From Patescibacteria group bacterium (GTDB taxonomy: Bacteria; Patescibacteriota; UBA1384; XYA2-FULL-43-10; 1-14-0-10-43-13): DNA of 64,000 nucleotides. The notes beneath the pieces are model-generated. The model had not been told where the DNA came from and searched no databases. It saw nothing but the letters and a program-made list of their open reading frames with translations. The position numbers were made by a program, and so were the translations under genes. The stretch is taken from the NCBI GenBank assembly GCA_041671645.1, contig JBAZBD010000001.1, forward strand, positions 671,234 through 735,233. Direction: 5' to 3'. Below are positions 1 to 13,453 of the stretch, in pieces (positions within the stretch are counted from its first letter, which is position 1; each line of letters begins with the position of its first letter).

Positions 1-909
1 ATAACTTCTCTGATTTCCAAATTGTGGCGCTTGGCCACTTCGAAGTCGTTCGGATCATGAGCTGGGGTAATCTTGACTGCGCCTGTGCCAAACTTGGGAT
101 CAACATAATCGTCAGCAACGACTTTAATCTTCGCCTTACCCAAGACTGTTTCGATCTCGATTTCTTTGCCAACGTATTCCTTATATCTGGCGTCGCTTGG
201 ATTGACTGCAACGGCAGTATCGCCAAATTTCGTCTCTGGACGAACGGTAGCCAAGACGAGAGGGCCATACTTTATATAGTAAAGCGGATCGACTTGCTCT
301 TCATATTTAACTTCCAAATCAGACAATGAGGTTTGATGTTTGGTACACCAGTTGACCGGGCGAGAGGCGCGATAGGCCAAGCCATCATTATATAGATCAA
401 CAAAAGTCTGATAGACAGTGGCTATAATGTCAGGGTCAAGGGTAAATTTGCCTCTTTCCCAATCGCAAGAAGCACCGAGACGTTTGAGCTGAGACTCCAT
501 TACCTCTTTGTTCTTAAGCGTAAACTCGAGTGTTGCCTTGTAGAGCTCCTCCCTGGACATGTCGAATCGGCTTTTGCCCTCTTTTTCCAATTTCTTCTCA
601 AATACAACCTGGGTTTCAAATCCTGCATGGTCTGCCCCTGGTAGCCAGAGAGCGGCCTTGCCACTGAGCCTAGCAAATCGGATCATCAAGTCTTCAATCG
701 TGATGAAAACGGCATGGCCGAGATGGAGTGAACCGTTGGCGTTGGGCGGCGGCATTATAATAGAATAGGGCTCGCCGTCAGGATTGACCTCCGGCTTGAA
801 ATAGCCCGATTCCTCCCACATTTTGTAGAGTTCGGTTTCGACTTGATTGTGATCGTATGCTTTGGCAATTTCTTTCATACTATTTTTATACCAGAAAGAG
901 GAACGCATT
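1..909 (-). CDS. valS: valyl-tRNA synthetase, N-terminal part (runs off the window start)
   Basis: Manual reverse translation is continuous from 909 to 1. Class I HIGH motif PPPNANGSLHLGHA, plus WLPGADHAG and KFGTGAVKITPAHDPNDFEVAKRHNL, all typical of ValS. No stop inside the window. Confidence 0.85.
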
Positions 910-987
910 TCCACAATTACAAATTAAACAGAAATTCAAAATCTTCCAAGACATCAAAGTTGCTCGACAACACCATATTGAGACCTG

Positions 988-1506
988 TTATTCGGAAATA
1001 GCGCTATGCTTTTCTTTGATCATATCGGGGTAGCCAAGACCAGAGACAACATTTTCTTCATTAATGCCCAGTTTCTGGACAATCTCGTTGAGTATAGACT
1101 GGTCTGGAGCTTCAATCTCAACAAACTCGCCCAAGCCGTCAACTTTATCTAACAATATCTCGGCTTCCATAAAATTATATTTTGTTCTTTCTTTTTGGAC
1201 TTTTACCTCAAAAGGAAACCCTAGCTTCTCAAGAATTTCCTGAGTAAGCGACGCATCGCCGACCACGGTTTCCCATTCATTTGTCTGAAGGTCATCTACT
1301 ACTTCATGATACGCTAGCTCACCACTTTTTTCATTTTGATCAAATCGGATACGCAAATATTTAGTTCGTGCTTGCTCCTGCGGCACATTGAAGTAATAAT
1401 CAATGGTCGTTTTCAGGCCCTTTTTCTCGGCTCCCAATGACTCGACTGTGTCCTTAAGCTCTTCATAATTATCTATCTTGAATTTTCTTTCAATCTCTAC
1501 ATTCAT
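988..1506 (-). CDS. CYTH-domain protein (CyaB/class IV adenylate cyclase-like triphosphate tunnel metalloenzyme)
   Basis: N-terminal EIERKF (ExExK) CYTH signature; about 170 aa, the usual size for stand-alone CYTH proteins. Confidence 0.65.
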   Translation of the reverse strand: MNVEIERKFKIDNYEELKDTVESLGAEKKGLKTTIDYYFNVPQEQARTKYLRIRFDQNEKSGELAYHEVVDDLQTNEWETVVGDASLTQEILEKLGFPFEVKVQKERTKYNFMEAEILLDKVDGLGEFVEIEAPDQSILNEIVQKLGINEENVVSGLGYPDMIKEKHSAISE

Positions 1507-1557
1507 TTTTATTTCTCCTTATGATTTAATCTCAATATTAAATCTTTTTGACAAATA

Positions 1558-1590
1558 AATAAACCCCCGCCAAAGGCGAGGGTTTTGTAA
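1558..1590 (-). terminator. GC-rich hairpin between the Tmk-like gene and the CYTH gene
   Basis: aaacccccgccaaaggcgagggtttt: stem ccgcc/ggcg nested in aaccc/gggtt, with flanking T/A runs. Confidence 0.4.
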
Positions 1591-1607
1591 GTAGTTGCAA
1601 TCGGCGG

Positions 1608-2150
1608 TTAGCCGATCATGTTGAAAATTTTCTGCGCAACTTCATCTGCGCTAAGCAAAGTGGTATCGATAATGTTACCGCAATAGCGGGGCAACATTAG
1701 ATCAACCTCGCGGAGGAGATCAATCTTTTCATCAGTATCTGACAAATAACCTCTGCTATAGAGTCGTTGTAGACGCACCTCCTCGGCGGCCTGTAGGCAG
1801 AAGTAATGGTCAGGCTGGACGATTGGTAATTTTGAGATATCGACAATGTCGACATCAACTCCCATCGCCTTATGAAAACATAACGTCGATATCAAATATC
1901 GATCGCAAACAACTGGACCGCTTTGGAGTAATCTTTCGATTTCTTCCGATGCAACCACATTGCAATTGAGATAAAACAGATATCTGACGAGTGGAGCGAT
2001 CCCCTCGCCATCGTAATATGCCCGCTGCCCAATCATTGGCCCGAACGGAGTTTTGATGAGCGTGGCGCCCATCAAATCGGCAAGAAGTTTCGCTACTGTA
2101 CTCTTGCCAGTACCGTCGATGCCTTCGATGGCAACCATTTTATTCGGCAT
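1608..2150 (-). CDS. thymidylate-kinase-family (d)NMP kinase, paralog 1
   Basis: P-loop IEGIDGTGKST and DRY-type motif VCDRYLIST. ATG at 2150 (MPNKMVAIEG) chosen; ATGs at 2159 and 2138 are alternatives. Ends 11 nt inside the upstream greA-like ORF. Confidence 0.7.
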   Translation of the reverse strand: MPNKMVAIEGIDGTGKSTVAKLLADLMGATLIKTPFGPMIGQRAYYDGEGIAPLVRYLFYLNCNVVASEEIERLLQSGPVVCDRYLISTLCFHKAMGVDVDIVDISKLPIVQPDHYFCLQAAEEVRLQRLYSRGYLSDTDEKIDLLREVDLMLPRYCGNIIDTTLLSADEVAQKIFNMIG

Positions 2151-2634
2151 GATCGTCATCCCCCGGTTGAATCCGCGCAATAACAATTTCTTTCTTGCCA
2201 AGCTTGAATTCATGATACTTTTTTTGGTGAATCAGGGCCTCACCCAAAGGTGACATGTTGGAGATGACCATAATTTTGCCGATTGTTGTCTCCACTTCCA
2301 GCCCCCCTACTTGCTCGGATGAAATATAGACGATTTTCTTGGAACCATCCGAATAGCCCAGAAAAACGATACAGCCGATTTCTACAGTACCATCACCGGC
2401 AATGCCTTCCTGTATTTTTTTGCGAAGTTCGTCGGCGGCTGCAATATAGTTTTGCTTGAAACCATCAGCAGCTGCAGCCTCGCGAGAGAAATCCTCCCGA
2501 TAAGTATCATATCGGGACTCGTTTCTCGTCTGCGAGGTGAGCACTCCCTCTACGGCGCTATCGACATGACCCTGGAAATCCCCTACTTTTCGAAGCAAGG
2601 CTTCCAGGATTTCATTAACAACTTTTATCCACAT
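2140..2634 (-). CDS. greA: GreA/GreB-family transcription elongation factor
   Basis: C-terminal FKBP-like domain ...GKIMVISNMSPLGEALIHQKKYHEFKLGKKEIVIARI aligns with the GreA C-terminus (ISVNSPIARGLIGK...EVEFEVIKV). N-terminal part is coiled-coil-like; 164 aa. Confidence 0.6.
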   Translation of the reverse strand: MWIKVVNEILEALLRKVGDFQGHVDSAVEGVLTSQTRNESRYDTYREDFSREAAAADGFKQNYIAAADELRKKIQEGIAGDGTVEIGCIVFLGYSDGSKKIVYISSEQVGGLEVETTIGKIMVISNMSPLGEALIHQKKYHEFKLGKKEIVIARIQPGDDDHAE

Positions 2635-3544
2635 AATTTACCCCTTCGCCCAGAGACATTATCTCTTCGAGCTGTTTTGATTTGCAGAACTCACTTAACC
2701 TGAAGTGAGACATTGAGTCGGTACGGTGTAAGCAAAGACGAACATAAAGCTCGCCGTCGATTGACTCTACCCGAGTGTTATAGAAACCCTCGAGACATGG
2801 AAGATTGCAGCCAGTGCACATAGTAGTGAGACGCTGGTTGCCAATTAGTTTCACTGTAATTTTGCCCATTTTCGTGTCGTAAACCTTTCTGGTTTCGCTC
2901 GAACCGAGACTTTCGATAGTCTCCCTCCGATTGGCCTGGATAGATTCAAGGACGACGTCAATGTTTTGAAGTGATCTGTCTGAGCCAAGGATGTTTAGAA
3001 GTCGAATATCGACGTCAAATTCACTCAACTGATTAATCACTTCGAGGGCTAACTCGGGGTCATCCCCGACGACTGTGTTCACTTTTGTAAAGATACCCAG
3101 CCTACTGCTTTCTGCGATGTTGTGGATGAGCCGGTCTATTTGTCTTTGGGATAGTGATCTATCCTCATGACCCTGGATTTTGGCCCATTCCGTCGAACGA
3201 AGGGTATGAAACGAGAAATTCACATTATCAAGCCCGGTTGCCGAAAGGGAAGTTAAAATTCTGGAGTTGAACTGACCATTTGTGGTCAAAGAGCAAGCCA
3301 GATCGTGTGATCGCACCAAACCGACCATTTCTGGAAGATCACGATGCAGGGTTGGTTCTCCACCCGTAATATGAAATTTTGAATATCCATATTGGCAGGC
3401 GAAATCGGTCAGCGTGTGAATTTGTTCGATTGTCATCGGCATGCTTACAGCACTACCTTCGCGATGGCAGAAGAAACAATTTAGATTGCAATCATTGATT
3501 ACTTTCGCACGCAAAATTCGGTCTTTAGTTGTTCTAACGTTCAT
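2615..3544 (-). CDS. MoaA-like 'twitch' radical SAM enzyme
   Basis: CNLNCFFCH (CxxxCxxC) near the N-terminus and GGEPTLH. C-terminal CTGCN...DGELYVRLCLH resembles the MoaA auxiliary-cluster segment (CxxCx13C ... DGKLrpCLF). Confidence 0.7.
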   Translation of the reverse strand: MNVRTTKDRILRAKVINDCNLNCFFCHREGSAVSMPMTIEQIHTLTDFACQYGYSKFHITGGEPTLHRDLPEMVGLVRSHDLACSLTTNGQFNSRILTSLSATGLDNVNFSFHTLRSTEWAKIQGHEDRSLSQRQIDRLIHNIAESSRLGIFTKVNTVVGDDPELALEVINQLSEFDVDIRLLNILGSDRSLQNIDVVLESIQANRRETIESLGSSETRKVYDTKMGKITVKLIGNQRLTTMCTGCNLPCLEGFYNTRVESIDGELYVRLCLHRTDSMSHFRLSEFCKSKQLEEIMSLGEGVNYVDKSC

Positions 3545-3764
3545 AGGTCACCTCTTTTTTCAAAGTACTAGCTACATGCATTCCGTTGGAAATGATATAA
3601 CTCCAATTTATCTCAATTACTTGAAATATGAATGTTACTGTGGCGAAAAGTGTGAAAGAAAATTGATAAATCTCTTTCGGTCGAAGGGTATCGCTCTGAA
3701 TCTTTCTGACGATTCCCTTGGATAATGATACTTCTCTTCCTGAGAATATTGGGCCAACAACTTA

Positions 3765-4028
3765 TTAGTTGATAACAAGTTTTGTCGGCTTGATTAGGGT
3801 TACAAGATGTGCACGAAAATTTTCAATTTCGGCGGCACTGTAATTGCCAATCAGGGTGACCGTAGTCATCCCATCATCGCTGAATTTCACAGAAATATTG
3901 AGATTTCTCATATTCGCTGCTCCATCGATGAATATTTTCGCTCTGCCTGCAATATAAAGTTTGCACTTTTTGCAGTACAGGCCTTCTCCAGGAAACACGT
4001 GGCGACATTTCATTTCATTTCCCTCCAA
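3765..4028 (-). CDS. small zinc-ribbon protein (hypothetical)
   Basis: MKCRHVFPGEGLYCKKCKLY carries two CxxC pairs; 87 aa; sits inside the rSAM/HD operon. Confidence 0.4.
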   Translation of the reverse strand: MEGNEMKCRHVFPGEGLYCKKCKLYIAGRAKIFIDGAANMRNLNISVKFSDDGMTTVTLIGNYSAAEIENFRAHLVTLIKPTKLVIN

Positions 4029-4154
4029 TCAAGAAATTAACTATTTATAACATAAACAGAGCTCTAAGTCAAACGAATGAGCTCACTCTTTCCGTTCACT
4101 GAAATAATTTGCGACATAAAAATCCCCCTGCGAGTGCAGAGGGATGGAAAATTA

Positions 4155-4823
4155 CTAAACCTTTTTGAGGTGTTTCAAGAAATCTAGCCGTTGTTCGGCC
4201 AGATTGAGAGTTTGGTGAAGATTATAGGCAAAACGTATCTGATAATCTTCTGGGATGAACCGAGTGCCTTCTTCCATCTTCTCACGGAAAGTGCCAAGAG
4301 TTTCTTCGCACTTAATGATTTCCTTAGCAACGTCTCCGTTGTAAGGGTCTAGATGGTTGACCTTTCGGTCAAGCACGCGAATGGGTAAAAGCTCCCACCA
4401 CTGCTTGGCAGCCTCGAGAAAACGAGGGTAATATAATTCGCGGTGGCGTTTCTCCTCCAAAGGGATGGAAAGAGCGTGGATGCCAAAGGCGATCTGCGGC
4501 CCGTATTTGGGTCCGAAGAATTCAGCAATATAATCTCTGCTAATGCAGATTATTGAGCCATCTGGCCCTCTGAGTTTGCCGTCTTCTTCGAAGTCATGGC
4601 CAATGGCAACGCATTGCGCCAGAAATGATAAACCGAAAACCATTGATTCCTGGCCAACTGCCAGTGAATGACCAACAGCTTTTCGACCGTCACGACGAGG
4701 ATTGAACAAGACTTCGTCAGCGAAGCCAGCAGTCCTCTGGATCAGTCCATAAGCCTCTCCGGAGAGCGCCAATAAACTGATCTTAGTAATGTAGTTGTTG
4801 AATTCTGGAAGTGTCACATACAT
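4155..4823 (-). CDS. HD-domain phosphohydrolase, YfbR-like 5'-deoxynucleotidase family (tentative)
   Basis: His then HD with proper spacing: RKAVGHSLAVG ... AIGHDFEEDG; overall resemblance to the YfbR pattern (VAEHS...LLHDxxE). Confidence 0.45.
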   Translation of the reverse strand: MYVTLPEFNNYITKISLLALSGEAYGLIQRTAGFADEVLFNPRRDGRKAVGHSLAVGQESMVFGLSFLAQCVAIGHDFEEDGKLRGPDGSIICISRDYIAEFFGPKYGPQIAFGIHALSIPLEEKRHRELYYPRFLEAAKQWWELLPIRVLDRKVNHLDPYNGDVAKEIIKCEETLGTFREKMEEGTRFIPEDYQIRFAYNLHQTLNLAEQRLDFLKHLKKV

Positions 4824-4990
4824 CGTGCGCTCTCCTTTTTCGAACGTTCGAGGGATAGATTGTCAAAGTGCTACTTTAAGCAATAAGTAAATAAGCAAAT
4901 AAGCAGGTAAGTTATTCCGAACAACTAATGATAATCTCGGATTAGTGATTCGTAATTAGTTAAATTCTGATTCGTATGAACCGCAGCTAC

Positions 4991-5024
4991 AAAAAAATGA
5001 CCCAGTGGGTCATTTCATTTTTTG
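4991..5024. terminator. palindromic hairpin flanked by A and T runs (possibly bidirectional)
   Basis: aaaaaaATGACCCAGTGGGTCATttcatttttt: near-perfect 17-nt palindrome between an A-run and a T-run. Confidence 0.6.
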
Positions 5025-5286
5025 CGCAGTCTGCCGCAGTCATCCTTCATGTTTTGGCCGGCCTTATCGGCTGGCAGGCCTGCCTCATCGGCTGGCAGGC
5101 ACAAAGTGGTGTCCAAGTATTGTTTGTACTTAAACAGCTTGTGCTTTTCTCTTGACATGTTCTAACTATAGTATTTCAATGCGGTATAGTTGTCAATAGG
5201 TATAGTTTTGTCTTCTCTCTGACTAATTAAAATAACCGCCGCCGATGCCCTAGAGAGGGTTGTCGACGACGGTTGAGCAATCAATT

Positions 5287-5883
5287 CTATTGACCGGAAA
5301 GCTTTCGAAGCTCGCCGAGAACTGATTCGACCAAACTGGTTTGAGTTTCCGAGCCACTCTTGGGGGTTGGTATTCCCCTGGTTGTCGCTGCACTCTTCCA
5401 ATAACAGTCGATAAATACATCTTTTCCGGTACATTCGGTCGCATTTTCAAACCATGTGTTGCGATTTGAGTCATAAATCCTGAAAGTCCCATCGCCGTTA
5501 TCCTTGAGATAAAGATAAGCCCCGTTCTTCTCGGCAAAACCAAGAAGTTCATTGCTCGAGTAGATATGGTTGCTATTTGCATCATCGAAGACACAGATAG
5601 CGTAAAGGCTGCGCACTCCTGAAGGAGGCAGAGGAATCGACCACTTGACGTCCTGCCAATCATTCGAAGACACTGGTATCGATGCCGATGAATACGTAGC
5701 GAAAGAGCTGCCTCCGTCATAGAGAAGTCCAATCCGCGGCTTGGTTGCGTTAGAATGAATATTTGCAACTCCTCGAAGCATCGGTTTTGGGGCGCCTCCT
5801 CCTCCGCACCCGCTGAAGAGGAACATTACAGCCATCGCTGCCAGGGCGATGGTCAGGGACGAAAGAGCGATGTGCTTAAGCAT
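5287..5883 (-). CDS. lipoprotein (hypothetical)
   Basis: MLKHIALSSLTIALAAMAVMFLFSGCGGGG is a signal peptide with lipobox LFSGC followed by a Gly-rich linker. Local GC is higher than the surroundings. Confidence 0.6.
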   Translation of the reverse strand: MLKHIALSSLTIALAAMAVMFLFSGCGGGGAPKPMLRGVANIHSNATKPRIGLLYDGGSSFATYSSASIPVSSNDWQDVKWSIPLPPSGVRSLYAICVFDDANSNHIYSSNELLGFAEKNGAYLYLKDNGDGTFRIYDSNRNTWFENATECTGKDVFIDCYWKSAATTRGIPTPKSGSETQTSLVESVLGELRKLSGQ

Positions 5884-6354
5884 CTCTACTCTCCTTTGAA
5901 TGTAGTTTGCTATTGCGAAGTGAAATCTTTCGCTCGCGAATCTGGCTACACAGTACAACATTATCACGTCCTAGTCAAGTAATTTGCTCGGCATATACGA
6001 AAACCGGCGCGCCAATATGGCACGCCAAGCATTCATTCGTAAATGGCAGAAATAAAAAATCAGTCCGAAGATTGATTGTATGTTTCAAACCATTTATATG
6101 GTTTCTAGAGATTTCATTTAGATGAATCTGCCTGAAATTTCCGAGCTGACAGTGGCTAGCATTTTGTCAACTTTGCTAGTTTAGCATCACATATCGAGAC
6201 CGTCAAAGTTAATTTTGAGCACAAGATTTTATTATTAACGTAAACTGTGGATAGATTCATCTGATGAATCAAACAACAATTCTCTCGTCAAGTGATTGTA
6301 AATGTATACGATATCTTGTACATTACATTTATATATTAATAAATCCTTTTTCCT

Positions 6355-7164
6355 ATGGAAAAAATGGACCAAGCCTCCTTCCGCAAGGAGCACCGCTCGA
6401 GAAATTTGGGGCTCCTAACCGAAGAGGAGCAGACAAAGATCAACAATACTACATTGCTCATTGCTGGTTGTGGTGTCGGCTCACAGATCGCTCTCTCTGC
6501 TGTTCGAATCGGGTTTGAAAATTTTATACTCGTCGATGGCGATACGGTAGAATTATCCAACAATAATAGACAAGGCTACAGCTGGCGCGATGTTGGACGT
6601 TACAAAGTCGATGCCCTTGCTCACAAAATCAAGGCGATCAATCCACATGCCCACATTCGCAAATATCCAATCTTTATAACTGTTGATAACGCGGCCAAAA
6701 TATCTCGCAAGGCTGATATCGTGGTCGACTCTATCGACCCAGACGCGGCCCAAGCGGTGATAGCTCTGCATAGAGCCGCCAAAAAATTTCATCACACAGT
6801 GATCCAGCCCACAGACGTCGGTTGGGGCGCCATGCTTCAGATCTTCACTCCCGATAGCATTTCATATGAAGAAATGATCGGTCTCAATCCCCGAACTCCT
6901 CTCGACAAGATTGATAATGAGGAAGCATTCACAAAATTCATCGATTTTTTTATGAAATTGATGCCTCCTTATGTACAAAAAGTCGCCTTAGATGTAGCGG
7001 AAGGACGACAAGCGCATTATCCACAACCAATCTCGGCTAGTTATATTTTGGCTGCTATGACAGTGGTAGCGGCCAAAAGAGTTGCCCTGGACTTGCCAGT
7101 TAGAGTTGCTCCTGACTATATCTCCTTTGACCCAAATACGATTTTGATCCCAGATGAAAAATAA
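6355..7164 (+). CDS. ThiF/MoeB/HesA-family E1-like adenylyltransferase
   Basis: Rossmann/E1 motif LLIAGCGVGSQIALSAVRIGFENFILVDGDTVELSNNNRQ; 269 aa with no rhodanese domain; overlaps the downstream MFS gene by 11 nt. Confidence 0.75.
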   Translation: MEKMDQASFRKEHRSRNLGLLTEEEQTKINNTTLLIAGCGVGSQIALSAVRIGFENFILVDGDTVELSNNNRQGYSWRDVGRYKVDALAHKIKAINPHAHIRKYPIFITVDNAAKISRKADIVVDSIDPDAAQAVIALHRAAKKFHHTVIQPTDVGWGAMLQIFTPDSISYEEMIGLNPRTPLDKIDNEEAFTKFIDFFMKLMPPYVQKVALDVAEGRQAHYPQPISASYILAAMTVVAAKRVALDLPVRVAPDYISFDPNTILIPDEK

Positions 7165-8470
7165 ATATAATCTGACCCTGATAATTACCGCTTTGGCGGT
7201 AGCCGATTTCTTGGGTGCTATCGACAGCACCGCACTTAATGTTGCCTTGCCCAAAATTACGAGCACTCTCCATATTTCGATTACAACTGCCCAATGGCTG
7301 CCAAACGCCTTCACTCTTGCCTTGGTCGCCCTCCTGATATTCATGGGGAAGCTCGGCAGCAAGATAGGAACTAAAAAATTGTATCTGATCGGACTCGGTG
7401 TATTTGGCATAAGCTCCCTAATACTTGGGTTCACAAACAATATCCCTCTTTTAATTTCTCTCCGTGCGATCCAAGGTATTGCTACCGCCATACTATATAC
7501 GATGCCGATGATTATTATCGCTAATCTCTGGAAGGAGCGAGAGAAAGCATTCGCAGTCACCTCCGCAACATTTGCGGGCGGTATGCTTGTCGGGCCAGTT
7601 CTCGGTGGCATGCTGGCGAATTTGGATTTTGGTAGTTTCTATGGCTGGCATTTAGTTTTTCTAATCAATGTTCCGCTTGTGATCGTTGGCTTGATCATCG
7701 CCGCCAAATACATTCCAGAGATTCCAAAAGTCGAGCAAAAGATAGATTTTGGCAGTATGCTGATCCTATCATCGGCTCTAGCTATCATCGTTCTCTCGTT
7801 TGCCCAAATCAGTAGATACTATTTGATCTTAGGAGCCTTACTTTTGATTGTCTTGTATTTCTACCAACGCAAGATCAAAAATTCGCTTGTCGACTTTCAC
7901 TTATTCCAGAATCAAACTTTTACCGCAGCCAATGTCCTGAGTTTCACATCTATGGTCTCTCTCATTGGAATGTCATTCGTCCTTACCTTCTACCTTCAGG
8001 ATATATTGAAATGGAATTCGCTCCAGGCAGGCTTGGCCCTAATCCCAGTACCAGTAATCACGGGAATATTCTCTGGCATTGGTGGTCAGCTCAAGAGTTG
8101 GCGAGTTGGCGGATTCTTGAGTGCAATATTAATTCTCCTCGGCCTCGCTTTCTTGACTAGGATCGATCCTTCAGTTTCATACGCTGCTGGCATTTTGCCA
8201 GGGCTGGCCTTGGTTTCTGCCGGTAGCGGATTTCTCATGACCTCAATATTTGCCGCAATTATTGGCTCTGCGCCTACAGAAAATTCCGGGAGCGCCTCAG
8301 GGATTCTCAATACTCTTCAGCAAATGGGAGCCCTCATCGGCATCGCCATCATCGCCTCTATCACACTCGAGTACCGACTGGCGTTCACAGTCCTTACGGG
8401 TTGTGGTATCATTGGACTAATATCCGCATTTTTTATTAAGAATAGACAAATTAATACAAGAATTGAGTAA
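7154..8470 (+). CDS. MFS transporter, DHA2/EmrB-QacA-like drug:H+ antiporter family
   Basis: Multiple predicted TM helices with MFS signature AVADFLGAIDSTALNVALPKI; 438 aa. Confidence 0.75.
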   Translation: MKNKYNLTLIITALAVADFLGAIDSTALNVALPKITSTLHISITTAQWLPNAFTLALVALLIFMGKLGSKIGTKKLYLIGLGVFGISSLILGFTNNIPLLISLRAIQGIATAILYTMPMIIIANLWKEREKAFAVTSATFAGGMLVGPVLGGMLANLDFGSFYGWHLVFLINVPLVIVGLIIAAKYIPEIPKVEQKIDFGSMLILSSALAIIVLSFAQISRYYLILGALLLIVLYFYQRKIKNSLVDFHLFQNQTFTAANVLSFTSMVSLIGMSFVLTFYLQDILKWNSLQAGLALIPVPVITGIFSGIGGQLKSWRVGGFLSAILILLGLAFLTRIDPSVSYAAGILPGLALVSAGSGFLMTSIFAAIIGSAPTENSGSASGILNTLQQMGALIGIAIIASITLEYRLAFTVLTGCGIIGLISAFFIKNRQINTRIE

Positions 8471-10019
8471 AATGGAAGAACCAAAAAAACAACCAACAAT
8501 GGCAGAAATAATGGCTGACTACGATAAAGCTATGGCATTTTTATCCCAAACTCCCGCAGAGGTATGGGAAGGAATCTCCGAGAAGACAGCGCTAGGTGTC
8601 TTCAAAGAGACCGCAGGGTCTATTCCAGCATATGGTCAAATACTAAAAAAGAATTCTGTCGACCCTGAAAAAATTACTAGTATGGCTGATTTTCATAATC
8701 TGCCAATAATTGACAAATATAACTATATAAATAAATTTTCTTTCGACGAGACTAACACTGTCAAGCCAGGAAACCATTTTTATAGTTTTACACTAAGTTC
8801 TGGGACTATAGATGAGCCAACAATCTGGCCAAGATATTATGATTGGGAAGAGTCATTACCCAGCCAGTTTGATATGTATATGAGCCTCTATTGGGGATTT
8901 AGAGACAAGTCGACCCTATTTATTAATGCCTACTCGCTTGGATGCTGGACTGCTGGTTGGACAGTAAACGTACTTGGGAGAGAGTTGACTCAGAAACGCA
9001 ATATGACGCTAGCAACCTGCGGCGCCGATCTCGACAGTATCGTCTACACTATTAAGAAATTATCAAAATATTATGACCAAACGGTTATTTGGTCATACCC
9101 CACCTTTGCTCGAACGATATTGGAACGGCTAGAAATAGAAGGTATCAACATCAGAAAGTTAAATCTTAAGCTTTTTATCGCCGGGGAGCATCACACCATT
9201 GAGTGGAAACACTACGTCAACAAATTAATCTCTGGTGATGAGTCGAAACTCACTGACATCATGGAGGGTTATGGTACCTCAGATGGTGGGATGATCGGCC
9301 TGTCTTCGGCCTTTAGCACTCTTGTGAGGGAGCTTTCCTATACGGATAAAAAATTGTGTGAAGATCTGTTTGGTAGGGATGACTGCGTTCCTTCTCTATT
9401 CCAATATTTTACCAGCACCTACTATATGGAGGAGCAGAATGGCGAAGTGATATTCACGACAAAAGCCACCACCCCCTTAATTAGATACAACATTCACGAT
9501 CGTGGAGGTGTTATAAAATTCAGAGAGATGGAGCAAAAACTCGCCGAGCATGGCTATGACTATAAAAAGATCCTCAAGGAAAAGGGCTTCTCAGCAGAGA
9601 GCATTTGGCAGCATCCATTCTTGTTTTGCTTTGGCAGGCGTGATGACACGATCGCAATTGCAGGGGTAAAGATCTACCCAGAGCAGATTGCCCCAGCAAT
9701 TTTCTCTGGAAAAATGAATGATGTTCATAACTTCAAATTAATACTCTCCTTTGACAAGCAGCAGAAACACGCCTTTGAGATCGCCCTTGAGTTGAAAGAT
9801 GGCAAAAAACATAAGCATGAAGCTGTGAGGACACTTGAACGCAAATATCACGACTTGATTACCGCCGAGTTGAGTCGGAACAATACAGATTACTATGACC
9901 TTGTGAAGATCGAAGGCAAGGGAGCTGACCCAGAAATCAGCATTTACGAATTTGGAACTGGTCCATTCTCTGGTGATCTGCGAAGGACTAAACCGAGAAT
10001 GGTCGTTCGAGAGTCATAG
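8463..10019 (+). CDS. ANL-superfamily adenylate-forming enzyme, GH3 / F390-synthetase (PaaK)-like
   Basis: SSGTIDEPTIW (P-loop-like SSGT), EGYGTSDGG, and LIRYNIHDRGGV resembling the GH3 YRYRvGDv motif; 518 aa. Confidence 0.6.
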   Translation: MSKMEEPKKQPTMAEIMADYDKAMAFLSQTPAEVWEGISEKTALGVFKETAGSIPAYGQILKKNSVDPEKITSMADFHNLPIIDKYNYINKFSFDETNTVKPGNHFYSFTLSSGTIDEPTIWPRYYDWEESLPSQFDMYMSLYWGFRDKSTLFINAYSLGCWTAGWTVNVLGRELTQKRNMTLATCGADLDSIVYTIKKLSKYYDQTVIWSYPTFARTILERLEIEGINIRKLNLKLFIAGEHHTIEWKHYVNKLISGDESKLTDIMEGYGTSDGGMIGLSSAFSTLVRELSYTDKKLCEDLFGRDDCVPSLFQYFTSTYYMEEQNGEVIFTTKATTPLIRYNIHDRGGVIKFREMEQKLAEHGYDYKKILKEKGFSAESIWQHPFLFCFGRRDDTIAIAGVKIYPEQIAPAIFSGKMNDVHNFKLILSFDKQQKHAFEIALELKDGKKHKHEAVRTLERKYHDLITAELSRNNTDYYDLVKIEGKGADPEISIYEFGTGPFSGDLRRTKPRMVVRES

Positions 10020-11804: not shown

Positions 11805-12620
11805 ATGACACGCAAGATATTTTCTTTTATCGTTGGATTTTTGGCTTTTATTGTATTGCTTCTTTTCTTCTTGGCATTGAATTTCAAAATTGCCCTCTCT
11901 GACCCGGGCAAGATTTCTAGATATATCAAGAATTCGGGCGCAAGTGAGTTGATTATCAGCTACATCAAAGAGAATTTGGTTGCCACCAACAATGTATCTC
12001 TCTCTGAGGGCACGAATCTGGAGATTGTGAACGAGAGCATCACGACAGAGCTAATTAATCCGCTAATAGACGAAGCGGTTCTCCGCACCAGCTTAGCGCT
12101 AAATGATCCTAGCCCAGAAAATTTGAAATTTGACCTCACGTACGACACTTCAAATCAGACAGTTTTTCCTACAAGCACTGTCTTTACCAAAACCGTGGAT
12201 CTGCGCAACAACCAATACTTTTTAATCCTGGCCAATTTGAATTTATATCTTTATATTCTAGGCGGCGCATCTCTGGCGCTAATACTGATTACCCTATTGA
12301 TATTGAAGGACACGCAGGACAGAATCGCTTTCGCTGGTCGTTTTCTGGTCGTATTGAGCCTTGCAATCGCTCTCGTATATCTGGCCCTAGTCTACCTGGC
12401 CCCGAGTTACGTCCGAAATGCCTTCAGTCTGACTGGGTTTGCCAGCGACGCCAGACTAGCCAACGCGATGAAGAAAATATGGATTTTCTCGGTAGAGAAG
12501 CAATTCGCATTATATTTTGCCGAATTTCTTGTCTTCTTTGTTTCTGGCGGAGTGCTCGGCTATCTGGGTGGGATGTTTCGAAGATTACCATTAGGCGAAA
12601 AAATGGAGATCAAGATATGA
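11805..12620 (+). CDS. membrane protein (hypothetical)
   Basis: Several hydrophobic helices; overlaps the next gene by ATGA. Confidence 0.5.
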
Positions 12621-13453
12621 AAGATTATTCATACGGTGTCATACCAATTTTCCACAAGATAATAGGCCAAGAGCCTCATTTTTTGTTGGTAGAACAGGGT
12701 GGCAAGTTTTGGAGTTTCCCCAAGGGCCACAAGGAGGATGAAGAATCTGATGTTGAGGCGGCCAAGCGGGAACTTTTCGAAGAAGCTGGGATTGCTGGCG
12801 GTGAATTGATTGAAGACAAAACTTTCAGTGAGCATTATACATATTCACAAGATGGCACCGATCTTGATAAAACTGTCACTTTCTATCCATATTTCTCGAA
12901 TCAATTCTTCCCGATAATCGACAACAAAGAGATCACCAATTTCAAATGGGTGACGTATGAAGAGGCCAAGAAAACTTTAAAATTCAAGGAAACTCTAGAT
13001 ATTTTGACGGAGGCTTATAATTGGCTTCAGGGTGAAGGAAAAGATGCTTATTTAGGGACAGAATCGACGCCCAGAAGAGTTCACGCTGATTCGCTCAAGG
13101 CCGCGATCAAAAGAGATGGTAAATATTTGCTCATAATGGACCATCATGGCAATTGGGAATTACCTGGTGGCAAGATCGAGGCCGGAGAGACGGTGGAAGA
13201 GGGATTAAGGCGAGAGTTTCGAGAAGAGACCGGTAGCACAGACCTAAAAACTGGTGAAGAAATAGGGACTTTTGATCTGACAGTCGATTACGGCCTGGCA
13301 GTATATGATTTTAGCATTCACATTTACCTTTGCTCTAGCGATATTGAGAACATCAAACTCAGCCACGAGCATCAAGACTCAGGCTGGTTTGATATAGATG
13401 AAATCAAAAATCTTCCGATGAAAGAGGGCTACAGAGAAATACTTACTCGCTAA
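12617..13453 (+). CDS. tandem Nudix hydrolase (two Nudix domains)
   Basis: Two Nudix boxes: [23 protein letters not shown] and [23 protein letters not shown]. Start set at the internal ATG ([10 protein letters not shown]) because of the ATGA overlap. Confidence 0.75.

What the first reader, a model, noticed from the sequence alone, without database searches (positions are those of the whole stretch)
988..4823. Second nucleotide-handling module: CYTH, Tmk-like kinase, GreA, MoaA-like twitch radical SAM, Zn-ribbon protein and a YfbR-like HD nucleotidase
Six consecutive minus-strand genes combine a triphosphate-tunnel CYTH enzyme, a thymidylate-kinase-family kinase (a paralog of the tmk at 56.5 kb), a MoaA-type radical SAM enzyme with the C-terminal auxiliary-cluster cysteines, and an HD 5'-nucleotidase-like protein. 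MoaA chemistry (GTP 3',8-cyclisation) is normally part of molybdopterin synthesis, and no moaC/D/E/mog-type genes are visible here. MoaA is the closest relative of viperin, and prokaryotic viperins typically sit beside nucleotide kinases. A MoaA/viperin-like enzyme embedded among kinase, NTP-tunnel and nucleotidase genes may therefore make a modified nucleotide for defence, signalling or DNA/RNA modification.
Basis: inference. Interest (0 to 1): 0.6.

Follow-up and report, generated by a model that had tools for sequence, protein, structure and literature searches.

The report
Radical-SAM nucleotide cassette with Gre factor
A 3.2-kb accessory cassette combines a MoaA/AbmM-like radical-SAM enzyme, a nucleotide kinase, a triphosphatase and its own Gre-type RNA-polymerase factor; this set recurs in many uncultured bacteria and one phage, is not in the papers or family libraries I searched, and probably makes a toxic nucleotide analogue.

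Summary
The six minus-strand ORFs exist, but the unit is different from the one proposed. A related genome has the same flanks with the HD gene directly next to ValRS. Window ~905-4085 is therefore a 3.2-kb insertion holding a small Zn-ribbon ORF, the radical-SAM gene, a Gre-like gene, a Tmk-like kinase and CYTH.

The HD protein is a backbone gene of RelA/SpoT-Mesh1 (HD_4) type, not YfbR-like. The radical-SAM enzyme is not MoaA. It scores 129 bits against a cutoff of 325, has a fourth invariant auxiliary-cluster Cys, keeps only one of the R266/R268 pair, and has no GG tail. Its C-terminal motif is shared with AbmM.

The "GreA" is a full-length Gre/Gfh1-family paralogue and the most faithful partner. 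It is present, or replaced by canonical GreA plus a TFIIS-type protein, in 17 of 18 non-actinobacterial loci, and is fused to the enzyme in one relative. Searching from the Gre side, 12 of 13 loci carry a radical-SAM gene and 11 a Tmk-like kinase. In Actinobacteria, 72 of 72 loci pair the enzyme with CYTH.

My best reading, which is inferred, is a viperin- or thmABC-like nucleotide-analogue system. The kinase would feed substrate, CYTH would hydrolyse triphosphates, and the Gre factor would couple the system to RNA polymerase. I found no description of it.

The parts
905..4085 (.). Accessory cassette (an indel relative to a related genome). It holds the five genes listed below.
   Evidence: blastn of L125 against the window aligns L125 5232-5875 to window 4837-4194 and L125 5965-6860 to window 896-1. 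Only 90 bp lie between these in L125. Junction sequences were compared. I found no flanking direct repeats, integrase or transposase.
2615..3544 (-). Twitch radical-SAM enzyme (309 aa) of a MoaA/AbmM-like clade. The CxxxCxxC motif is at C19/C23/C26. Four invariant C-terminal Cys are at C243, C246, C250 and C271, in the motif CxxC-x3-8-C-x-EG[FY]Y..R...C.
   Evidence: PF04055 1e-15. moaA_archaeal 129.5 bits against a cutoff of 325; viperin 62 against 180. Invariant columns. Alignments with MoaA. PDB sequence matches to MoaA and AbmM. Foldseek on the model of the relative P0004: MoaA 3.9e-14, AbmM 3.2e-9. The RBS AGAGGTG precedes the ATG.
2140..2634 (-). Gre/Gfh1-family paralogue (164 aa). It has an N-terminal coiled coil with the conserved motif S40-R-Y-D43-T at the position of the Gre tip, and a C-terminal GreA/GreB domain. 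Its start overlaps the radical-SAM stop by 20 nt.
   Evidence: PF01272 E 1.3e-3 for this copy. Relatives L001, L004 and L024 pass the Pfam cutoff. The family profile A8 matches Gfh1 2etn 2e-8 (residues 16-154 of 157), GreA 1grj and GreB 2p4v. It is fused to the radical-SAM enzyme in P0004. Co-occurrence counts.
1608..2150 (-). Tmk-family NMP kinase. The P-loop is GIDGTGKST and the DRY motif is present. The ORF is open to 2213, but the likely start is the ATG at 2150, with GGGGG 9 nt upstream. That start overlaps the Gre-like stop.
   Evidence: PF02223 1e-17; TIGR00041 62.6 bits, below the cutoff of 83.25. PADLOC PDC-M51B 7.9e-25 and VakA 3.3e-13. PDB thymidylate kinases at 4e-7. Start codon context.
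1561..1585 (-). GC-rich hairpin (11 bp stem) followed by ATTTATTT, lying between the kinase and CYTH. It looks like a terminator or attenuator.
   Evidence: Consensus scan and sequence. This is a pattern match only.
988..1506 (-). CYTH / triphosphate-tunnel metalloenzyme (172 aa) with a complete catalytic set: E4, E6, K8, R52, R54, E77, R107, D120, E130 and E132.
   Evidence: PF01928 5e-20. Invariant columns in A3. The profile is closest to archaeal TTMs 1yem, 2dc4 and Saci_0718 7ns8 (about 1e-26) and further from class IV adenylate cyclases (3e-12). The RBS AAGGAG is present.
3765..4013 (-). Small ORF (82 aa from the ATG at 4013; the ORF is open to a TTG at 4028) with CxH...CxxC at its N-terminus. 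It lies inside the inserted segment. Function unknown.
   Evidence: GGAGGG lies 8 nt upstream of the ATG and a TATAAAT-like box lies further upstream. No Pfam, NCBIfam or PADLOC hit. No homologue in any locus. AF2 mean pLDDT 59. Whether it codes for a protein is not shown.
4155..4823 (-). NOT part of the cassette. This is a flanking backbone gene for a divergent RelA/SpoT-Mesh1-type HD (HD_4) hydrolase, with motifs H52, H76-D77, E80-D81 and D152-R153.
   Evidence: No direct family hit. An exhaustive search found 23 relatives. 15 of 21 hit PF13328 HD_4. The profile matches RelA/SpoT hydrolase domains at 1.7e-29 and Mesh1/SAH at 1e-13. The gene is present at the same place in L125, which lacks the cassette. 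A terminator hairpin at 4145-4122 is conserved in L125.

Best explanation
Window ~905-4085 is an accessory five-gene cassette. It is not part of molybdenum-cofactor synthesis.

What is shown:
- Its core is a twitch radical-SAM enzyme of a MoaA/AbmM-like clade.
- In many lineages this enzyme is genetically locked to three kinds of partner: an NMP kinase, a tri- or diphosphate hydrolase (CYTH, or NUDIX in one fusion), and a Gre/Gfh1-family factor of the RNA-polymerase secondary channel.

What is inferred, as the most likely mechanism:
1. The kinase phosphorylates a nucleoside monophosphate to supply the enzyme.
2. The radical-SAM enzyme abstracts a ribose hydrogen from the nucleoside di- or triphosphate and produces a sugar-modified nucleotide analogue. 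This would be a viperin-type dehydrated nucleotide, an AbmM-type thio-sugar nucleotide, or something similar. Its fully Cys-ligated auxiliary cluster would serve as an electron conduit or as the sulfur donor.
3. CYTH hydrolyses the triphosphate, either to release the product or to keep the producer's own nucleotide pool safe. The NTPase ThmC plays that protective role in the 4'-thiothymidine cluster.
4. The Gre-like factor connects the system to the cell's multi-subunit RNA polymerase. Most probably it stimulates excision of analogue-terminated 3' ends. The producer's polymerase would then survive, while polymerases without such a factor (phage single-subunit polymerases, competitors) would be poisoned.

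Whether the analogue is used against phages (defence) or against other cells (antibiotic) is not resolved.
For: Accessory status:
- The syntenic relative L125 has HD-like directly followed by ValRS, with no cassette.

Conserved linkage with changed gene order:
- L001-3 have rSAM-Gre-Tmk-CYTH.
- L004-6 have MTase-CYTH-rSAM-Gre-Tmk.
- L007-11, L013-16, L024, L034, L062, L089, L126 and L128 are further arrangements.

Fusions:
- rSAM-Gre in P0004.
- NUDIX-rSAM in P0020.
- rSAM-Tmk in L146.

Each role is filled by unrelated families in different loci:
- Kinase: Tmk, ADK, AAA_18 or AAA_33.
- RNAP factor: two Gre subtypes, or canonical GreA plus a TFIIS-type Zn-ribbon protein.
- Hydrolase: CYTH or NUDIX.

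Counts:
- Of 18 distinct non-actinobacterial loci, 17 have a Gre or TFIIS-type factor, 15 a kinase and 13 a hydrolase (my hand tally).
- Searching from the Gre side, 12 of 13 well-flanked metagenomic loci carry a radical-SAM gene and 11 carry a Tmk-like kinase.
- In genome loci of actinobacterial type, 72 of 72 have CYTH within 300 bp.

Evidence for a nucleotide substrate:
- Residues aligned with MoaA R17, K69, K163 and R192 are kept. The role of R17 is documented in PMC9026282. The roles of the other three are from memory.
- The closest characterised relatives are MoaA, AbmM, BlsE and viperin.

Precedents:
- thmABC is a radical-SAM enzyme plus a nucleoside kinase plus an NTPase. It makes 4'-thiothymidine, and the NTPase alone confers self-resistance (PMC12691670).
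- TFIIS excises chain-terminating analogues from Pol II, whereas the single-subunit POLRMT is sensitive (PMC3499576).

Conflict context:
- The kinase matches PDC-M51B and VakA. PDC-M51A matches the B12 radical-SAM enzyme that replaces the MoaA-like one in L164.
- L126 lies next to PDC-S21/SIR2. L004 lies next to SocA and an integrase.
- One genuine phage carries Tmk-rSAM-Gre.
Against: - No substrate, product or activity has been measured. Every step of the mechanism is an inference.
- In Actinobacteria the rSAM-CYTH pair has no Gre factor or kinase nearby. The Gre link is therefore not universal for the enzyme family.
- Several Gre-linked loci, including the phage, lack CYTH.
- Many contexts are housekeeping genes or two-component systems rather than defence islands.
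- The best PDB match of the Gre-like family is Gfh1, which inhibits RNA polymerase rather than stimulating cleavage. Only one acidic tip residue (D43) is invariant.
- A fusion of an enzyme with its 'immunity' protein is not what one would predict first.
- Phage carriage is rare: one contig in IMG/VR.
- The AF2 model of the fusion gave no usable interface.
Confidence: 0.4

Rival explanations
1. Alarmone or second-messenger system acting on RNA polymerase. The radical-SAM enzyme, kinase and CYTH would make a signalling nucleotide, with CYTH acting as a class IV-type cyclase or as the off-switch. The Gre-like factor would be its receptor or co-effector in the RNAP secondary channel, as DksA is for ppGpp. 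The output would be a regulatory change in transcription, not poisoning.
For: - The window CYTH just passes the cyaB model: 61.8 bits against a cutoff of 57.95.
- HisKA_7TM histidine kinases or response regulators lie near the cassette in L002, L007, L009, L011, L012 and L128, and in the window at 10037-11692.
- In Actinobacteria the rSAM-CYTH pair sits beside NsdA-family or WhiJ-like regulators and anti-sigma-like HATPase_c_2 genes. Within 3 kb, 44 loci have NsdA-family, 23 have WhiJ-like and 30 have HATPase_c_2 genes.
- The best structural relative of the Gre-like family is the regulator Gfh1.
- A RelA/SpoT-type HD hydrolase lies next to the cassette in the window.
Against: - The HD gene is a backbone gene, present without the cassette in L125.
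- The CYTH family is much closer to archaeal triphosphatase-type TTMs than to the solved class IV cyclases: about 94 bits against 49.
- The histidine kinases may reflect shared synteny among related CPR genomes.
- The kinases match families associated with defence.
- A radical-SAM step in making a messenger has no precedent that I know of.
Confidence: 0.15
2. Enzyme-substrate pair. The radical-SAM enzyme would post-translationally modify the conserved tip motif (S-R-Y-D-T) of the Gre-like factor, much as tip residues of EF-P, eIF5A and EF2 are modified. The kinase, methyltransferase and CYTH would supply or process the modifying group. The modified factor would then act on RNAP.
For: - Translational coupling of the radical-SAM and Gre genes, and a natural fusion of the two.
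- S40 and D43 are invariant, exactly at the position of the Gre tip.
- Twitch/SPASM radical-SAM enzymes often act on peptides. SuiB and SkfB are among the structural neighbours.
- The Gre-like subfamily is almost never found without a radical-SAM gene.
Against: - 72 of 72 actinobacterial-type loci have the enzyme with CYTH but no Gre-like protein.
- The same Gre-kinase pair occurs with unrelated radical-SAM families, namely B12-type and viperin-like. That is hard to reconcile with one specific protein modification.
- L007/L008 have canonical GreA plus a TFIIS-type protein instead.
- The NTP-contacting residues of MoaA are conserved.
- NMP kinases, NUDIX and CYTH all point to a small nucleotide as substrate.
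Confidence: 0.12
3. A genuine MoaA (GTP 3',8-cyclase) acting in molybdenum-cofactor biosynthesis, with unrelated neighbours.
For: - The best NCBIfam hits are the three MoaA models.
- JGI annotates the protein as cyclic pyranopterin phosphate synthase.
- The best Foldseek hit is MoaA.
- A ThiF/MoeB-like gene lies 2.8 kb away.
Against: - Its scores are far below all MoaA cutoffs: 129.5 against 325, 111.7 against 231, and 96.4 against 284.
- No PF06463 match is listed for this subfamily, whereas most of the annotated MoaAs in the same search carry one.
- A fourth invariant Cys is inserted after CxxC, only one of R266/R268 is kept, and there is no C-terminal GG. The criteria come from PMC9026282.
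- The gene is absent from a syntenic relative.
- Its conserved partners are a kinase, a Gre factor and CYTH, never moaC, moaD or moaE.
- The ThiF gene belongs to a separate conserved ThiF-MFS-PaaK-like cluster that is present without the cassette.
Confidence: 0.02
4. A canonical prokaryotic viperin (pVip) with its kinase, producing ddhNTP.
For: - PADLOC pVip models match the N-terminal core at 7e-20.
- The kinase matches VakA.
- One Gre-linked locus (L154) has a radical-SAM enzyme whose best hit is viperin.
Against: - viperin_w_prok scores 62 bits against a cutoff of 180, and the match covers only residues 15-159.
- MoaA models score twice as high.
- The protein has a twitch auxiliary-cluster domain. 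As far as I recall, solved viperins have no such cluster.
Confidence: 0.04

Closest known systems
MoaA (GTP 3',8-cyclase; PDB 1tv7, 2fb3)
   Same: - Radical-SAM core plus a C-terminal twitch domain carrying a second Fe-S cluster.
- It is the best hit in NCBIfam, in the profile-to-PDB search and in Foldseek.
- The equivalents of R17, K69, K163 and R192, and the GGEPT and TTNG motifs, are kept.
   Different: - Far below the family cutoffs.
- No PF06463 match.
- An insertion after CxxC adds a fourth invariant Cys and the EGFY motif.
- Only one of R266/R268 is retained.
- No C-terminal GG.
- No Moco genes nearby, and the gene sits in an accessory cassette.
AbmM (albomycin thiosugar radical-SAM enzyme; PDB 8wm2)
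   Same: - It is the best single-sequence PDB hit: 1.2e-15 over the N-terminal half.
- It shares the extended C-terminal motif CxxC-x5-C-x-E...R-x-C-L.
- Foldseek gives TM 0.63 normalised to the target.
- In its pathway AbmM works alongside the nucleoside kinase AbmG (PMC12691670). This cassette likewise pairs its enzyme with a kinase.
   Different: - Only about 60-90 bits of similarity, and the middle of the protein does not align.
- AbmM sits in a large Streptomyces siderophore-nucleoside cluster.
- No CYTH or Gre factor is mentioned for that cluster in the one paper I could read (PMC12691670); I did not inspect the cluster itself.
- Whether this enzyme also donates sulfur from its cluster is unknown.
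- The primary AbmM papers were not available to me.
thmABC, the minimal 4'-thiothymidine gene cluster of Photorhabdus (PMC12691670)
   Same: - The same functional triad: a radical-SAM enzyme, a nucleoside or nucleotide kinase, and a nucleoside triphosphatase.
- The triphosphatase was shown to confer self-resistance.
- It is a small mobile unit whose flanks differ between species.
   Different: - The paper describes ThmC only as a nucleoside triphosphatase and does not name its family.
- There is no Gre-like factor.
- Its target is DNA replication, not transcription.
Prokaryotic viperins with associated kinases (pVip/VakA), and PADLOC candidate system PDC-M51
   Same: - The same logic: a radical-SAM enzyme acting on an NTP, next to an NMP kinase.
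- The kinase here is a strong PDC-M51B and VakA match.
- The variant loci L164 and L169 have a PDC-M51A-like B12 radical-SAM enzyme together with the same kinase, CYTH and Gre genes.
   Different: - The radical-SAM enzyme is neither a viperin nor PDC-M51A-like.
- The CYTH and Gre-like proteins match no PADLOC model.
- As far as I know, PDC-M51 is a candidate system that has not been tested.
Gre/Gfh1 family of RNAP secondary-channel factors, and TFIIS
   Same: - The profile matches Gfh1 over nearly its whole length, and GreA and GreB over roughly their C-terminal two-thirds.
- The conserved motif lies where the catalytic acidic tip (D41/E44 of GreA, from memory) sits.
- TFIIS is documented to excise nucleotide analogues.
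   Different: - The tip motif is S-R-Y-D-T (or S-E-T-W-H-D-N in subtype 2), instead of the D-L-S-E-N-A-E-Y I recall for GreA.
- The gene is always encoded with a radical-SAM enzyme and a kinase, and is once fused to the enzyme.
- RNAP binding and activity are untested.
OxsA/OxsB (oxetanocin A): a B12 radical-SAM enzyme plus an HD phosphohydrolase acting on deoxyadenosine phosphates (from memory)
   Same: A radical-SAM enzyme paired with a nucleotide phosphohydrolase to make a nucleoside analogue. It resembles the B12 radical-SAM + CYTH variants L164 and L169.
   Different: Different enzyme families, and no kinase or Gre factor. This comparison was not tested here.

Membership tests
MoaA (GTP 3',8-cyclase) | Score above the curated NCBIfam equivalog cutoffs | tested here: not met
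   TIGR02668 129.5 against 325.25; NF001199 111.7 against 231; TIGR02666 96.4 against 284.05.
MoaA (GTP 3',8-cyclase) | C-terminal Mob_synth_C domain (PF06463) | tested here: not met
   Not hit in Pfam. Not listed for P0001-P0028, but listed for most of the annotated MoaAs from P0030 onward.
MoaA (GTP 3',8-cyclase) | Auxiliary cluster held by three Cys, leaving one Fe free to bind GTP N1 (PMC9026282) | tested here: not met
   Four invariant Cys (C243, C246, C250, C271). C250 lies in a family-specific insertion. That C250 ligates the cluster is inferred, not shown.
MoaA (GTP 3',8-cyclase) | Strictly conserved R17, R266 and R268 | tested here: not met
   The R17 equivalent (R12) is kept. Only one Arg (R258) remains in the R266/R268 region. 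The other position is E260, or Y in the actinobacterial subtype. Criterion.
MoaA (GTP 3',8-cyclase) | C-terminal GG motif (bacterial and eukaryotic MoaA) | tested here: not met
   The C-terminus is ...VNYVDKSC, and the tails are variable across the family. Archaeal MoaA also lacks GG, so this feature is weak on its own.
MoaA (GTP 3',8-cyclase) | Genome encodes the rest of the Moco pathway | not testable with these tools
   Only the 64-kb window is available. No moaC, moaD or moaE was seen next to any of about 150 family loci. The gene is absent from the syntenic relative L125.
Viperin / pVip | Score above the viperin_w_prok cutoff, with a match over the full length | tested here: not met
   62.3 bits against 180, covering residues 15-159 only. 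PADLOC pVip 7e-20 covers the N-terminal core only.
AbmM-like twitch radical-SAM clade (informal) | CxxC-x(3-8)-C-x-E ... R-x-C-L C-terminal motif, plus a MoaA-like core | tested here: met
   The motif is present in the window protein, in all family members, and in 8wm2 (CGTCRDAARCMEQ...FRPCL). No curated definition of this clade exists.
CYTH / triphosphate tunnel metalloenzyme | Pfam gathering score, the ExExK motif, and the conserved basic and acidic tunnel residues | tested here: met
   72.5 bits against 23.2. E4, E6, R52, R54, E77, R107, D120, E130 and E132 are invariant in 18 sequences.
Class IV adenylate cyclase (CyaB) | TIGR00318 cutoff, and cyclase rather than hydrolase activity | tested here: inconclusive
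   The window copy scores 61.8 against 57.95. The Streptomyces partner scores 46.8, below the cutoff. The family profile is closer to archaeal TTMs (about 94 bits) than to the solved cyclases (about 49 bits). Activity cannot be tested here.
dTMP kinase (Tmk) | TIGR00041 cutoff, P-loop and DR[YH] motif | tested here: inconclusive
   The Pfam family threshold is passed (64.8 against 27), and the P-loop GIDGTGKST and the DRY motif are present. The equivalog cutoff is not met (62.6 against 83.25). The protein is closer to PDC-M51B (85.7 bits). Substrate unknown.
GreA/GreB/Gfh1 family | C-terminal GreA_GreB domain (PF01272) above the gathering score | tested here: inconclusive
   The window copy scores 19.1 against 26.9. 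Relatives L001 (32.7), L004 (35.3) and L024 (34.0) pass.
GreA/GreB/Gfh1 family | N-terminal coiled coil with an acidic tip, and full-length homology | tested here: met
   The profile A8, built without any canonical GreA, matches Gfh1 residues 16-154 of 157 at 2e-8. AF2 shows two long helices followed by a beta domain, at low confidence. D43 is invariant at the tip. Whether it stimulates cleavage cannot be tested here.
   No such hit. The family members hit HD_4 (15 of 21), and the profile matches RelA/SpoT, Mesh1 and SAH structures.
RelA/SpoT-Mesh1 HD hydrolases (HD_4) | The H...HD...ED...DR.HN motifs, and profile similarity | tested here: met
   R44, H52, H76, D77, E80 and D152 are invariant, and R153 is nearly so. 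The profile matches hydrolase domains at 1.7e-29. The window protein itself is too divergent for a direct Pfam hit.

The most novel reading that the evidence does not exclude
This would be a 'poison nucleotide plus polymerase antidote' system. A variable radical-SAM enzyme (MoaA/AbmM-like, viperin-like or B12-type), fed by an NMP kinase, makes an RNA chain terminator or another transcription poison. A dedicated Gre-type (or TFIIS-type) transcript-cleavage factor, encoded in the same operon, keeps the producer's own multi-subunit RNA polymerase running. Gre-family factors would then act as immunity proteins, and this modular family would be widespread in CPR bacteria and present in at least one phage.
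Probability: 0.25. Interest if true: 0.85.

Novelty: new variant of a known kind. Interest (0 to 1): 0.7.

Why it matters
- It would define a new subfamily of nucleotide-directed twitch radical-SAM enzymes. There were 403 tblastn-confirmed relatives among 185,579 species genomes (the search pattern may also admit some true MoaAs), and all 80 that I inspected carry the family motif. The subfamily has no curated model, and JGI annotates the window protein as a cyclic pyranopterin phosphate synthase (MoaA).
- It would link small-molecule nucleotide chemistry to the RNA-polymerase secondary channel through a dedicated Gre paralogue. I found no description of such a link.
- If the Gre factor is an immunity protein, that would explain how cells tolerate their own chain-terminating nucleotides. 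This question is also open for viperins. It would also give Gre and TFIIS factors an ecological role that was previously only a speculation (PMC3499576).
- The products could be new nucleoside analogues of antibiotic or antiviral interest.
- The actinobacterial rSAM-CYTH pairs, which sit next to NsdA-family and WhiJ-like regulators, are a tractable entry point in cultivable Streptomyces.

Tried and rejected
1. Word-indexed homologue searches with the Gre-like and HD-like proteins returned essentially only the query. I replaced them with locus-derived alignments and the exhaustive representative search.
2. I tried AF2 on paired rSAM+Gre rows taken from other loci. Docking of the tip into the active site could therefore not be judged.
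3. AF2 on the Zn-ribbon ORF gave mean pLDDT 59. I ran no fold search because it would be meaningless. BLASTP found no similarity to the TFIIS-type protein of L007.
4. Rfam found nothing in 1-7000. I found no flanking direct repeats at the insertion beyond an 8-mer, no integrase and no transposase.
5. The promoter and terminator scans are at background level. Only the two strong hairpins are worth noting.
6. Literature searches for CYTH + radical SAM, for GreA + radical SAM + thymidylate kinase, and for MoaA-like defence found nothing relevant. The 'GreA' hits in PMC7159879 were the word 'great'. The primary AbmM and AbmG papers are not held.
7. I considered the neighbouring ValRS as a possible resistant-target copy, as in clusters for aaRS inhibitors. 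I rejected this because ValRS is at the same place in the relative that lacks the cassette.
8. I considered the ThiF/MoeB-like gene at 6355-7164 as a Moco link. I rejected this because it belongs to a separate conserved ThiF-MFS-PaaK-like cluster.
9. A scan of viral contigs with the Gre-like profile found only the one phage already known.
It was redone with A9.

Full report
**1. What is in the sequence**

The six minus-strand ORFs are at the coordinates given. Family scans gave the following results:

| ORF | Length | Result |
|---|---|---|
| 988-1506 | 172 aa | CYTH: PF01928 5e-20; TIGR00318 61.8 bits against a cutoff of 57.95 |
| 1608-2213 | 201 aa | Tmk family: PF02223 1e-17; below the dTMP-kinase equivalog cutoff (62.6 against 83.25); PADLOC PDC-M51B 7.9e-25 and the viperin-associated kinase VakA 3.3e-13 |
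| 2140-2634 | 164 aa | Only a sub-threshold match to the GreA/GreB C-terminal domain (E 1.3e-3) |
| 2615-3544 | 309 aa | Radical SAM; best hits are the MoaA models, all far below cutoff (129.5 against 325) |
| 3765-4028 | 87 aa | No hit at all |
| 4155-4823 | 222 aa | No hit at all |

- The radical-SAM, Gre-like and kinase genes overlap one another. The likely kinase start is the ATG at 2150, which has a GGGGG box 9 nt upstream.
- A strong hairpin separates the kinase from CYTH, and another follows the HD-like gene.
- Downstream of CYTH lies the 5' end of a class I aminoacyl-tRNA synthetase gene. I read it as ValRS. Its counterpart in L125 hits the tRNA-synt_1 family.

**2. The unit is a five-gene insertion, and the HD gene is not in it**

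The only close relative of the HD-like protein is P0123 (66-68% identical). It lies on a contig from a related genome, L125.

- L125 has the same order: PaaK-like, MFS, ThiF, a small protein, HD-like.
- In L125 the tRNA-synthetase gene then follows 54 bp after the HD-like stop codon.
- At the DNA level, L125 aligns to window 9697-5476, 4837-4194 and 896-1. Only 90 bp lie where the window has 3.3 kb.
- The HD terminator hairpin and the ValRS promoter region are recognisable on both sides of the gap.

So ~905-4085 is an accessory segment. It holds the small Zn-ribbon ORF, the radical-SAM gene, the Gre-like gene, the kinase and CYTH. I found no repeats, integrase or transposase that would explain how it moved.

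**3. The HD-like protein**

- An exhaustive profile search found 23 relatives.
- Of 21 aligned members, 15 hit Pfam HD_4.
- The family profile matches RelA/SpoT hydrolase domains at 1.7e-29, and Mesh1 and small alarmone hydrolases at about 1e-13.
- The motifs RR-G-x5-H, LHDxxEDG and DRxHN are conserved.

It is therefore a divergent hydrolase of (p)ppGpp-hydrolase type. It is not YfbR-like, and it belongs to the backbone of the genome.

**4. The radical-SAM enzyme is MoaA-like but is not MoaA**

- The window comes from a Patescibacteria MAG, on a contig of 867,751 bp.
- The protein has about 27 full-length relatives in CPR-type metagenomes, none with a listed PF06463 match. Most of the annotated MoaAs further down the same list carry one.
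- The family has these invariant residues: R-x-K, CxxxCxxC-H-x-EG, H-x-TGGEPT, TTNG, N156 and R181. It also has the C-terminal block C243-x2-C246-x3-8-C250-x-E-G-F-Y-x-x-R258-x-E...R-L-C271.
- Compared with MoaA (CxxC-T-R-x-R...C), an insertion adds a fourth invariant Cys. Only one of the two arginines that bind guanine O6 remains, and there is no GG tail.
- A review of MoaA states that its auxiliary cluster has three Cys, with GTP N1 as the fourth ligand. It also states that R17, R266 and R268 and the GG motif are essential (PMC9026282).
- Residues aligned with MoaA R17, K69, K163 and R192 are retained. This fits a nucleotide substrate. The triphosphate-binding role of the last three is from memory.
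- Against solved structures, the single sequence matches 8wm2 best (1.2e-15, N-terminal half), then BlsE, then MoaA. The family profile matches MoaA (7.9e-29) and 8wm2 (1.7e-24). The 8wm2 match includes a second stretch over the C-terminal motif CGTCRDAARCMEQ...FRPCL.
- Foldseek on a confident model of the relative P0004 (pLDDT above 90 for about 10-300) ranks MoaA first. It identifies 8wm2 as AbmM.
- AbmM is the albomycin enzyme that swaps the furanose oxygen for sulfur, using an Fe-S cluster as the donor (PMC12691670).

**5. The enzyme family is large, and it is always paired with CYTH in Actinobacteria**

- A scan of one genome per species found 403 tblastn-confirmed relatives. Of the 80 best loci, 72 come from Streptomyces, Nocardia, Amycolatopsis, Actinomadura, Kribbella and similar genera, plus Thermoactinomyces.
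- All carry the four-Cys motif, as CxxCRFNNxxDCxEG[YF]YG[VI]R...GVCIQRMDL.
- All 72 have a CYTH gene within 300 bp on the same strand. It lies downstream in 47 and upstream in 25.
- Neither the enzyme nor the CYTH partner reaches any specific NCBIfam model.
- Within 3 kb of the enzyme, 44 loci have an NsdA-family TPR/HTH regulator, 30 an anti-sigma-like HATPase_c_2 gene, 23 a WhiJ-like HTH_31-DUF5753 gene and 17 a DUF6879 gene.
- No Gre-like gene or Tmk-like kinase lies nearby in these loci.
- The CYTH family has a complete catalytic set. It is closest to archaeal triphosphate-tunnel enzymes, including Saci_0718, and further from class IV cyclases.

**6. Outside Actinobacteria the constant partner is a Gre-type factor**

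The cassette recurs with changed gene order:

- L001-3: rSAM-Gre-Tmk-CYTH.
- L004-6: MTase-CYTH-rSAM-Gre-Tmk, beside SocA and an integrase.
- L009-11: Gre-Tmk divergent from MTase-CYTH-rSAM.
- L013-16, L024, L034, L062 and L089: further arrangements.
- L126: beside a PDC-S21/SIR2 gene.
- L128: an ADK-family kinase replaces Tmk.

The Gre-like proteins are of two subtypes. One has the tip motif S-R-Y-D-[TS] and the other S-E-T-W-H-D-N. L007 and L008 instead have a canonical GreA plus a protein with an N-terminal Zn ribbon and a TFIIS-type C-terminal ribbon carrying an RADEG loop.

Three natural fusions tie the components together:
- rSAM-Gre in P0004.
- NUDIX-rSAM in P0020.
- rSAM-Tmk in L146.

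By my hand tally, 17 of 18 distinct non-actinobacterial loci have a Gre or TFIIS-type factor, 15 have an NMP kinase (Tmk, ADK, AAA_18 or AAA_33) and 13 have CYTH or NUDIX.

A profile of the Gre-like family, built without any canonical GreA, matches Gfh1 over residues 16-154 of 157 (2e-8), and also matches GreA and GreB. The conserved motif aligns with the tip of the coiled coil.

**7. The reciprocal test from the Gre side**

- A metagenome scan seeded with the SRYD Gre-like motif gave 54 loci, of which 49 are distinct.
- Thirteen of these have at least 2 kb on both sides. Twelve of the 13 carry a radical-SAM gene, 11 a Tmk-like kinase and 4 a CYTH. The exception is a weak partial hit.
- The radical-SAM partner varies. 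It is MoaA/AbmM-like in most loci, viperin-like in L154, and B12-binding in L133, L164 and L169. L179, L181 and L182 have MoaA-like proteins that have lost CxxxCxxC but keep the C-terminal cluster motif.
- The B12 enzyme of L164 matches PADLOC PDC-M51A, and the kinases match PDC-M51B at up to 3e-32.

The Gre-kinase pair thus behaves as a constant module serving exchangeable radical-SAM enzymes.

**8. Phage carriage**

One IMG/VR contig (L093, which is the same as L184) has Tmk-rSAM-Gre between the terminase genes and the portal gene. It is the only viral contig found with this Gre subtype.

**9. How it most likely works**

Shown:
- Accessory status.
- Conserved linkage, including fusions.
- Intact catalytic motifs in all four proteins.
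- Kinship to enzymes that act on nucleotides.

Inferred, by analogy with two documented systems:
- The thmABC cluster is a radical-SAM enzyme, a nucleoside kinase and an NTPase. It makes 4'-thiothymidine, and the NTPase alone protects the producer (PMC12691670).
- TFIIS removes chain-terminating ribonucleotide analogues from Pol II, whereas the phage-type POLRMT is poisoned. The authors of that study speculated that prokaryotic cleavage factors evolved for the same reason (PMC3499576).

On that basis I propose four steps:
1. The kinase supplies a phosphorylated nucleotide.
2. The radical-SAM enzyme alters its sugar.
3. CYTH (or NUDIX) hydrolyses the triphosphate, for release of the product or for self-protection.
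4. The Gre-like factor couples the system to RNA polymerase, most probably as an antidote.

Three features support a common target in transcription. The radical-SAM partners are exchangeable. The Gre partner is constant. And a Gre-like factor is replaced in one lineage by a TFIIS-type factor.

Weak points:
- Nothing has been measured.
- The actinobacterial loci lack the Gre factor.
- Some Gre-linked loci lack CYTH.
- The closest structural relative of the factor is the inhibitor Gfh1.
- Many contexts are not defence islands.

The rivals are listed with their tests: an alarmone with the Gre factor as receptor, modification of the Gre tip by the enzyme, true MoaA, and canonical pVip.

**10. Novelty**

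- No model in Pfam, NCBIfam or PADLOC captures the radical-SAM subfamily, its CYTH partner or the Gre-like subfamily.
- The searchable library holds no paper that combines CYTH with radical SAM in a relevant way, and none that combines GreA with radical SAM and thymidylate kinase.
- The general logic is known: a radical-SAM enzyme next to a nucleotide kinase, sometimes with an NTPase, making a nucleotide analogue. The known examples are pVip/VakA, PDC-M51, thmABC and AbmM/AbmG.
- The new elements are the four-Cys MoaA/AbmM-like subfamily, its obligate CYTH pairing, and above all the dedicated Gre-type factor.

I therefore rate it as a new variant of a known kind, with high interest for radical-SAM enzymology, transcription and microbial conflict systems.

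Noticed in passing
window 6355-10019 (+); L125 238-3899: A ThiF/E1-like gene, an MFS transporter and a PaaK/F390-synthetase-like adenylate-forming enzyme form a tight cluster with overlapping genes. The cluster is conserved in the related genome that lacks the cassette. Its function is unknown. It might make and export a small adenylated compound.
   Followed up: partly
window 10037-11692 (+); L007 10170-11747; L009 3027-4571; L128 2498-4672: A HisKA_7TM histidine kinase lies within a few kb of the cassette in the window and in three otherwise different CPR loci. Response-regulator genes are also common nearby. I could not tell shared synteny from a functional link.
   Followed up: partly
L007/L008 8859-9215 (-): A bacterial (CPR) contig encodes a 118-aa protein with an N-terminal Zn ribbon and a TFIIS-type C-terminal ribbon (PF01096 1.5e-10). 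The ribbon carries an RADEG acidic loop, as in archaeal TFS and Rpb9. The gene sits next to the Tmk-like gene of the cassette.
   Followed up: partly
L024 7875-9056; L062 7860-9059: Two Saccharibacteria genomes carry the actinobacterial subtype of the radical-SAM enzyme (motif ...GVC[IL]QRMDL). Here it comes with a Gre-like factor and a P-loop kinase. Because Saccharibacteria live on Actinobacteria, this suggests gene transfer between epibiont and host.
   Followed up: no
L179 563-1723; L181 1844-2878; L182 3848-4954: These are MoaA-like proteins next to Tmk and Gre-like genes. They have lost the CxxxCxxC radical-SAM cluster motif but keep the C-terminal CxxC...CxE...C motif. They may be pseudo-enzymes, or Fe-S proteins with a different role.
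   Followed up: partly
window 21504-22112 (+): A second, divergent CYTH-like ORF (202 aa) matches the CYTH family profile at 5e-9.
   Followed up: no
window 55906-57239 (-): An HD-domain gene (PF01966 6e-14) and a Tmk gene (PF02223 2.4e-23) overlap each other.
   Followed up: partly
L013 10066-12380; L015 3871-6332 and 10027-12507: The Saccharibacteria/Patescibacteria versions of the cassette are expanded. They add two NUDIX genes, a uridine-kinase-like gene, a 572-aa protein with no Pfam hit, a second CYTH (L013) and a second Tmk-like kinase (L015).
   Followed up: partly
L017-L092 (for example L017 5584-7498; L032 5216-6596): In Streptomyces and relatives the rSAM-CYTH pair has lower third-position GC (about 0.81-0.88) than other high-GC3 ORFs in the same loci (up to about 0.95-0.97). 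It sits beside NsdA-family or WhiJ-like regulators, DUF6879 and anti-sigma-like kinases. S. albus NRRL B-1811 has two copies (L020 and L053).
   Followed up: partly
L125 5983-8198: In the relative, the class I tRNA-synthetase gene is called as two ORFs (467 and 254 aa). This could be a frameshift or an assembly error.
   Followed up: no
window 12479-13453 (+): A NUDIX protein (PF00293 1.6e-34, domain at residues 213-322) has a ~210-residue N-terminal region with no family hit.
   Followed up: no
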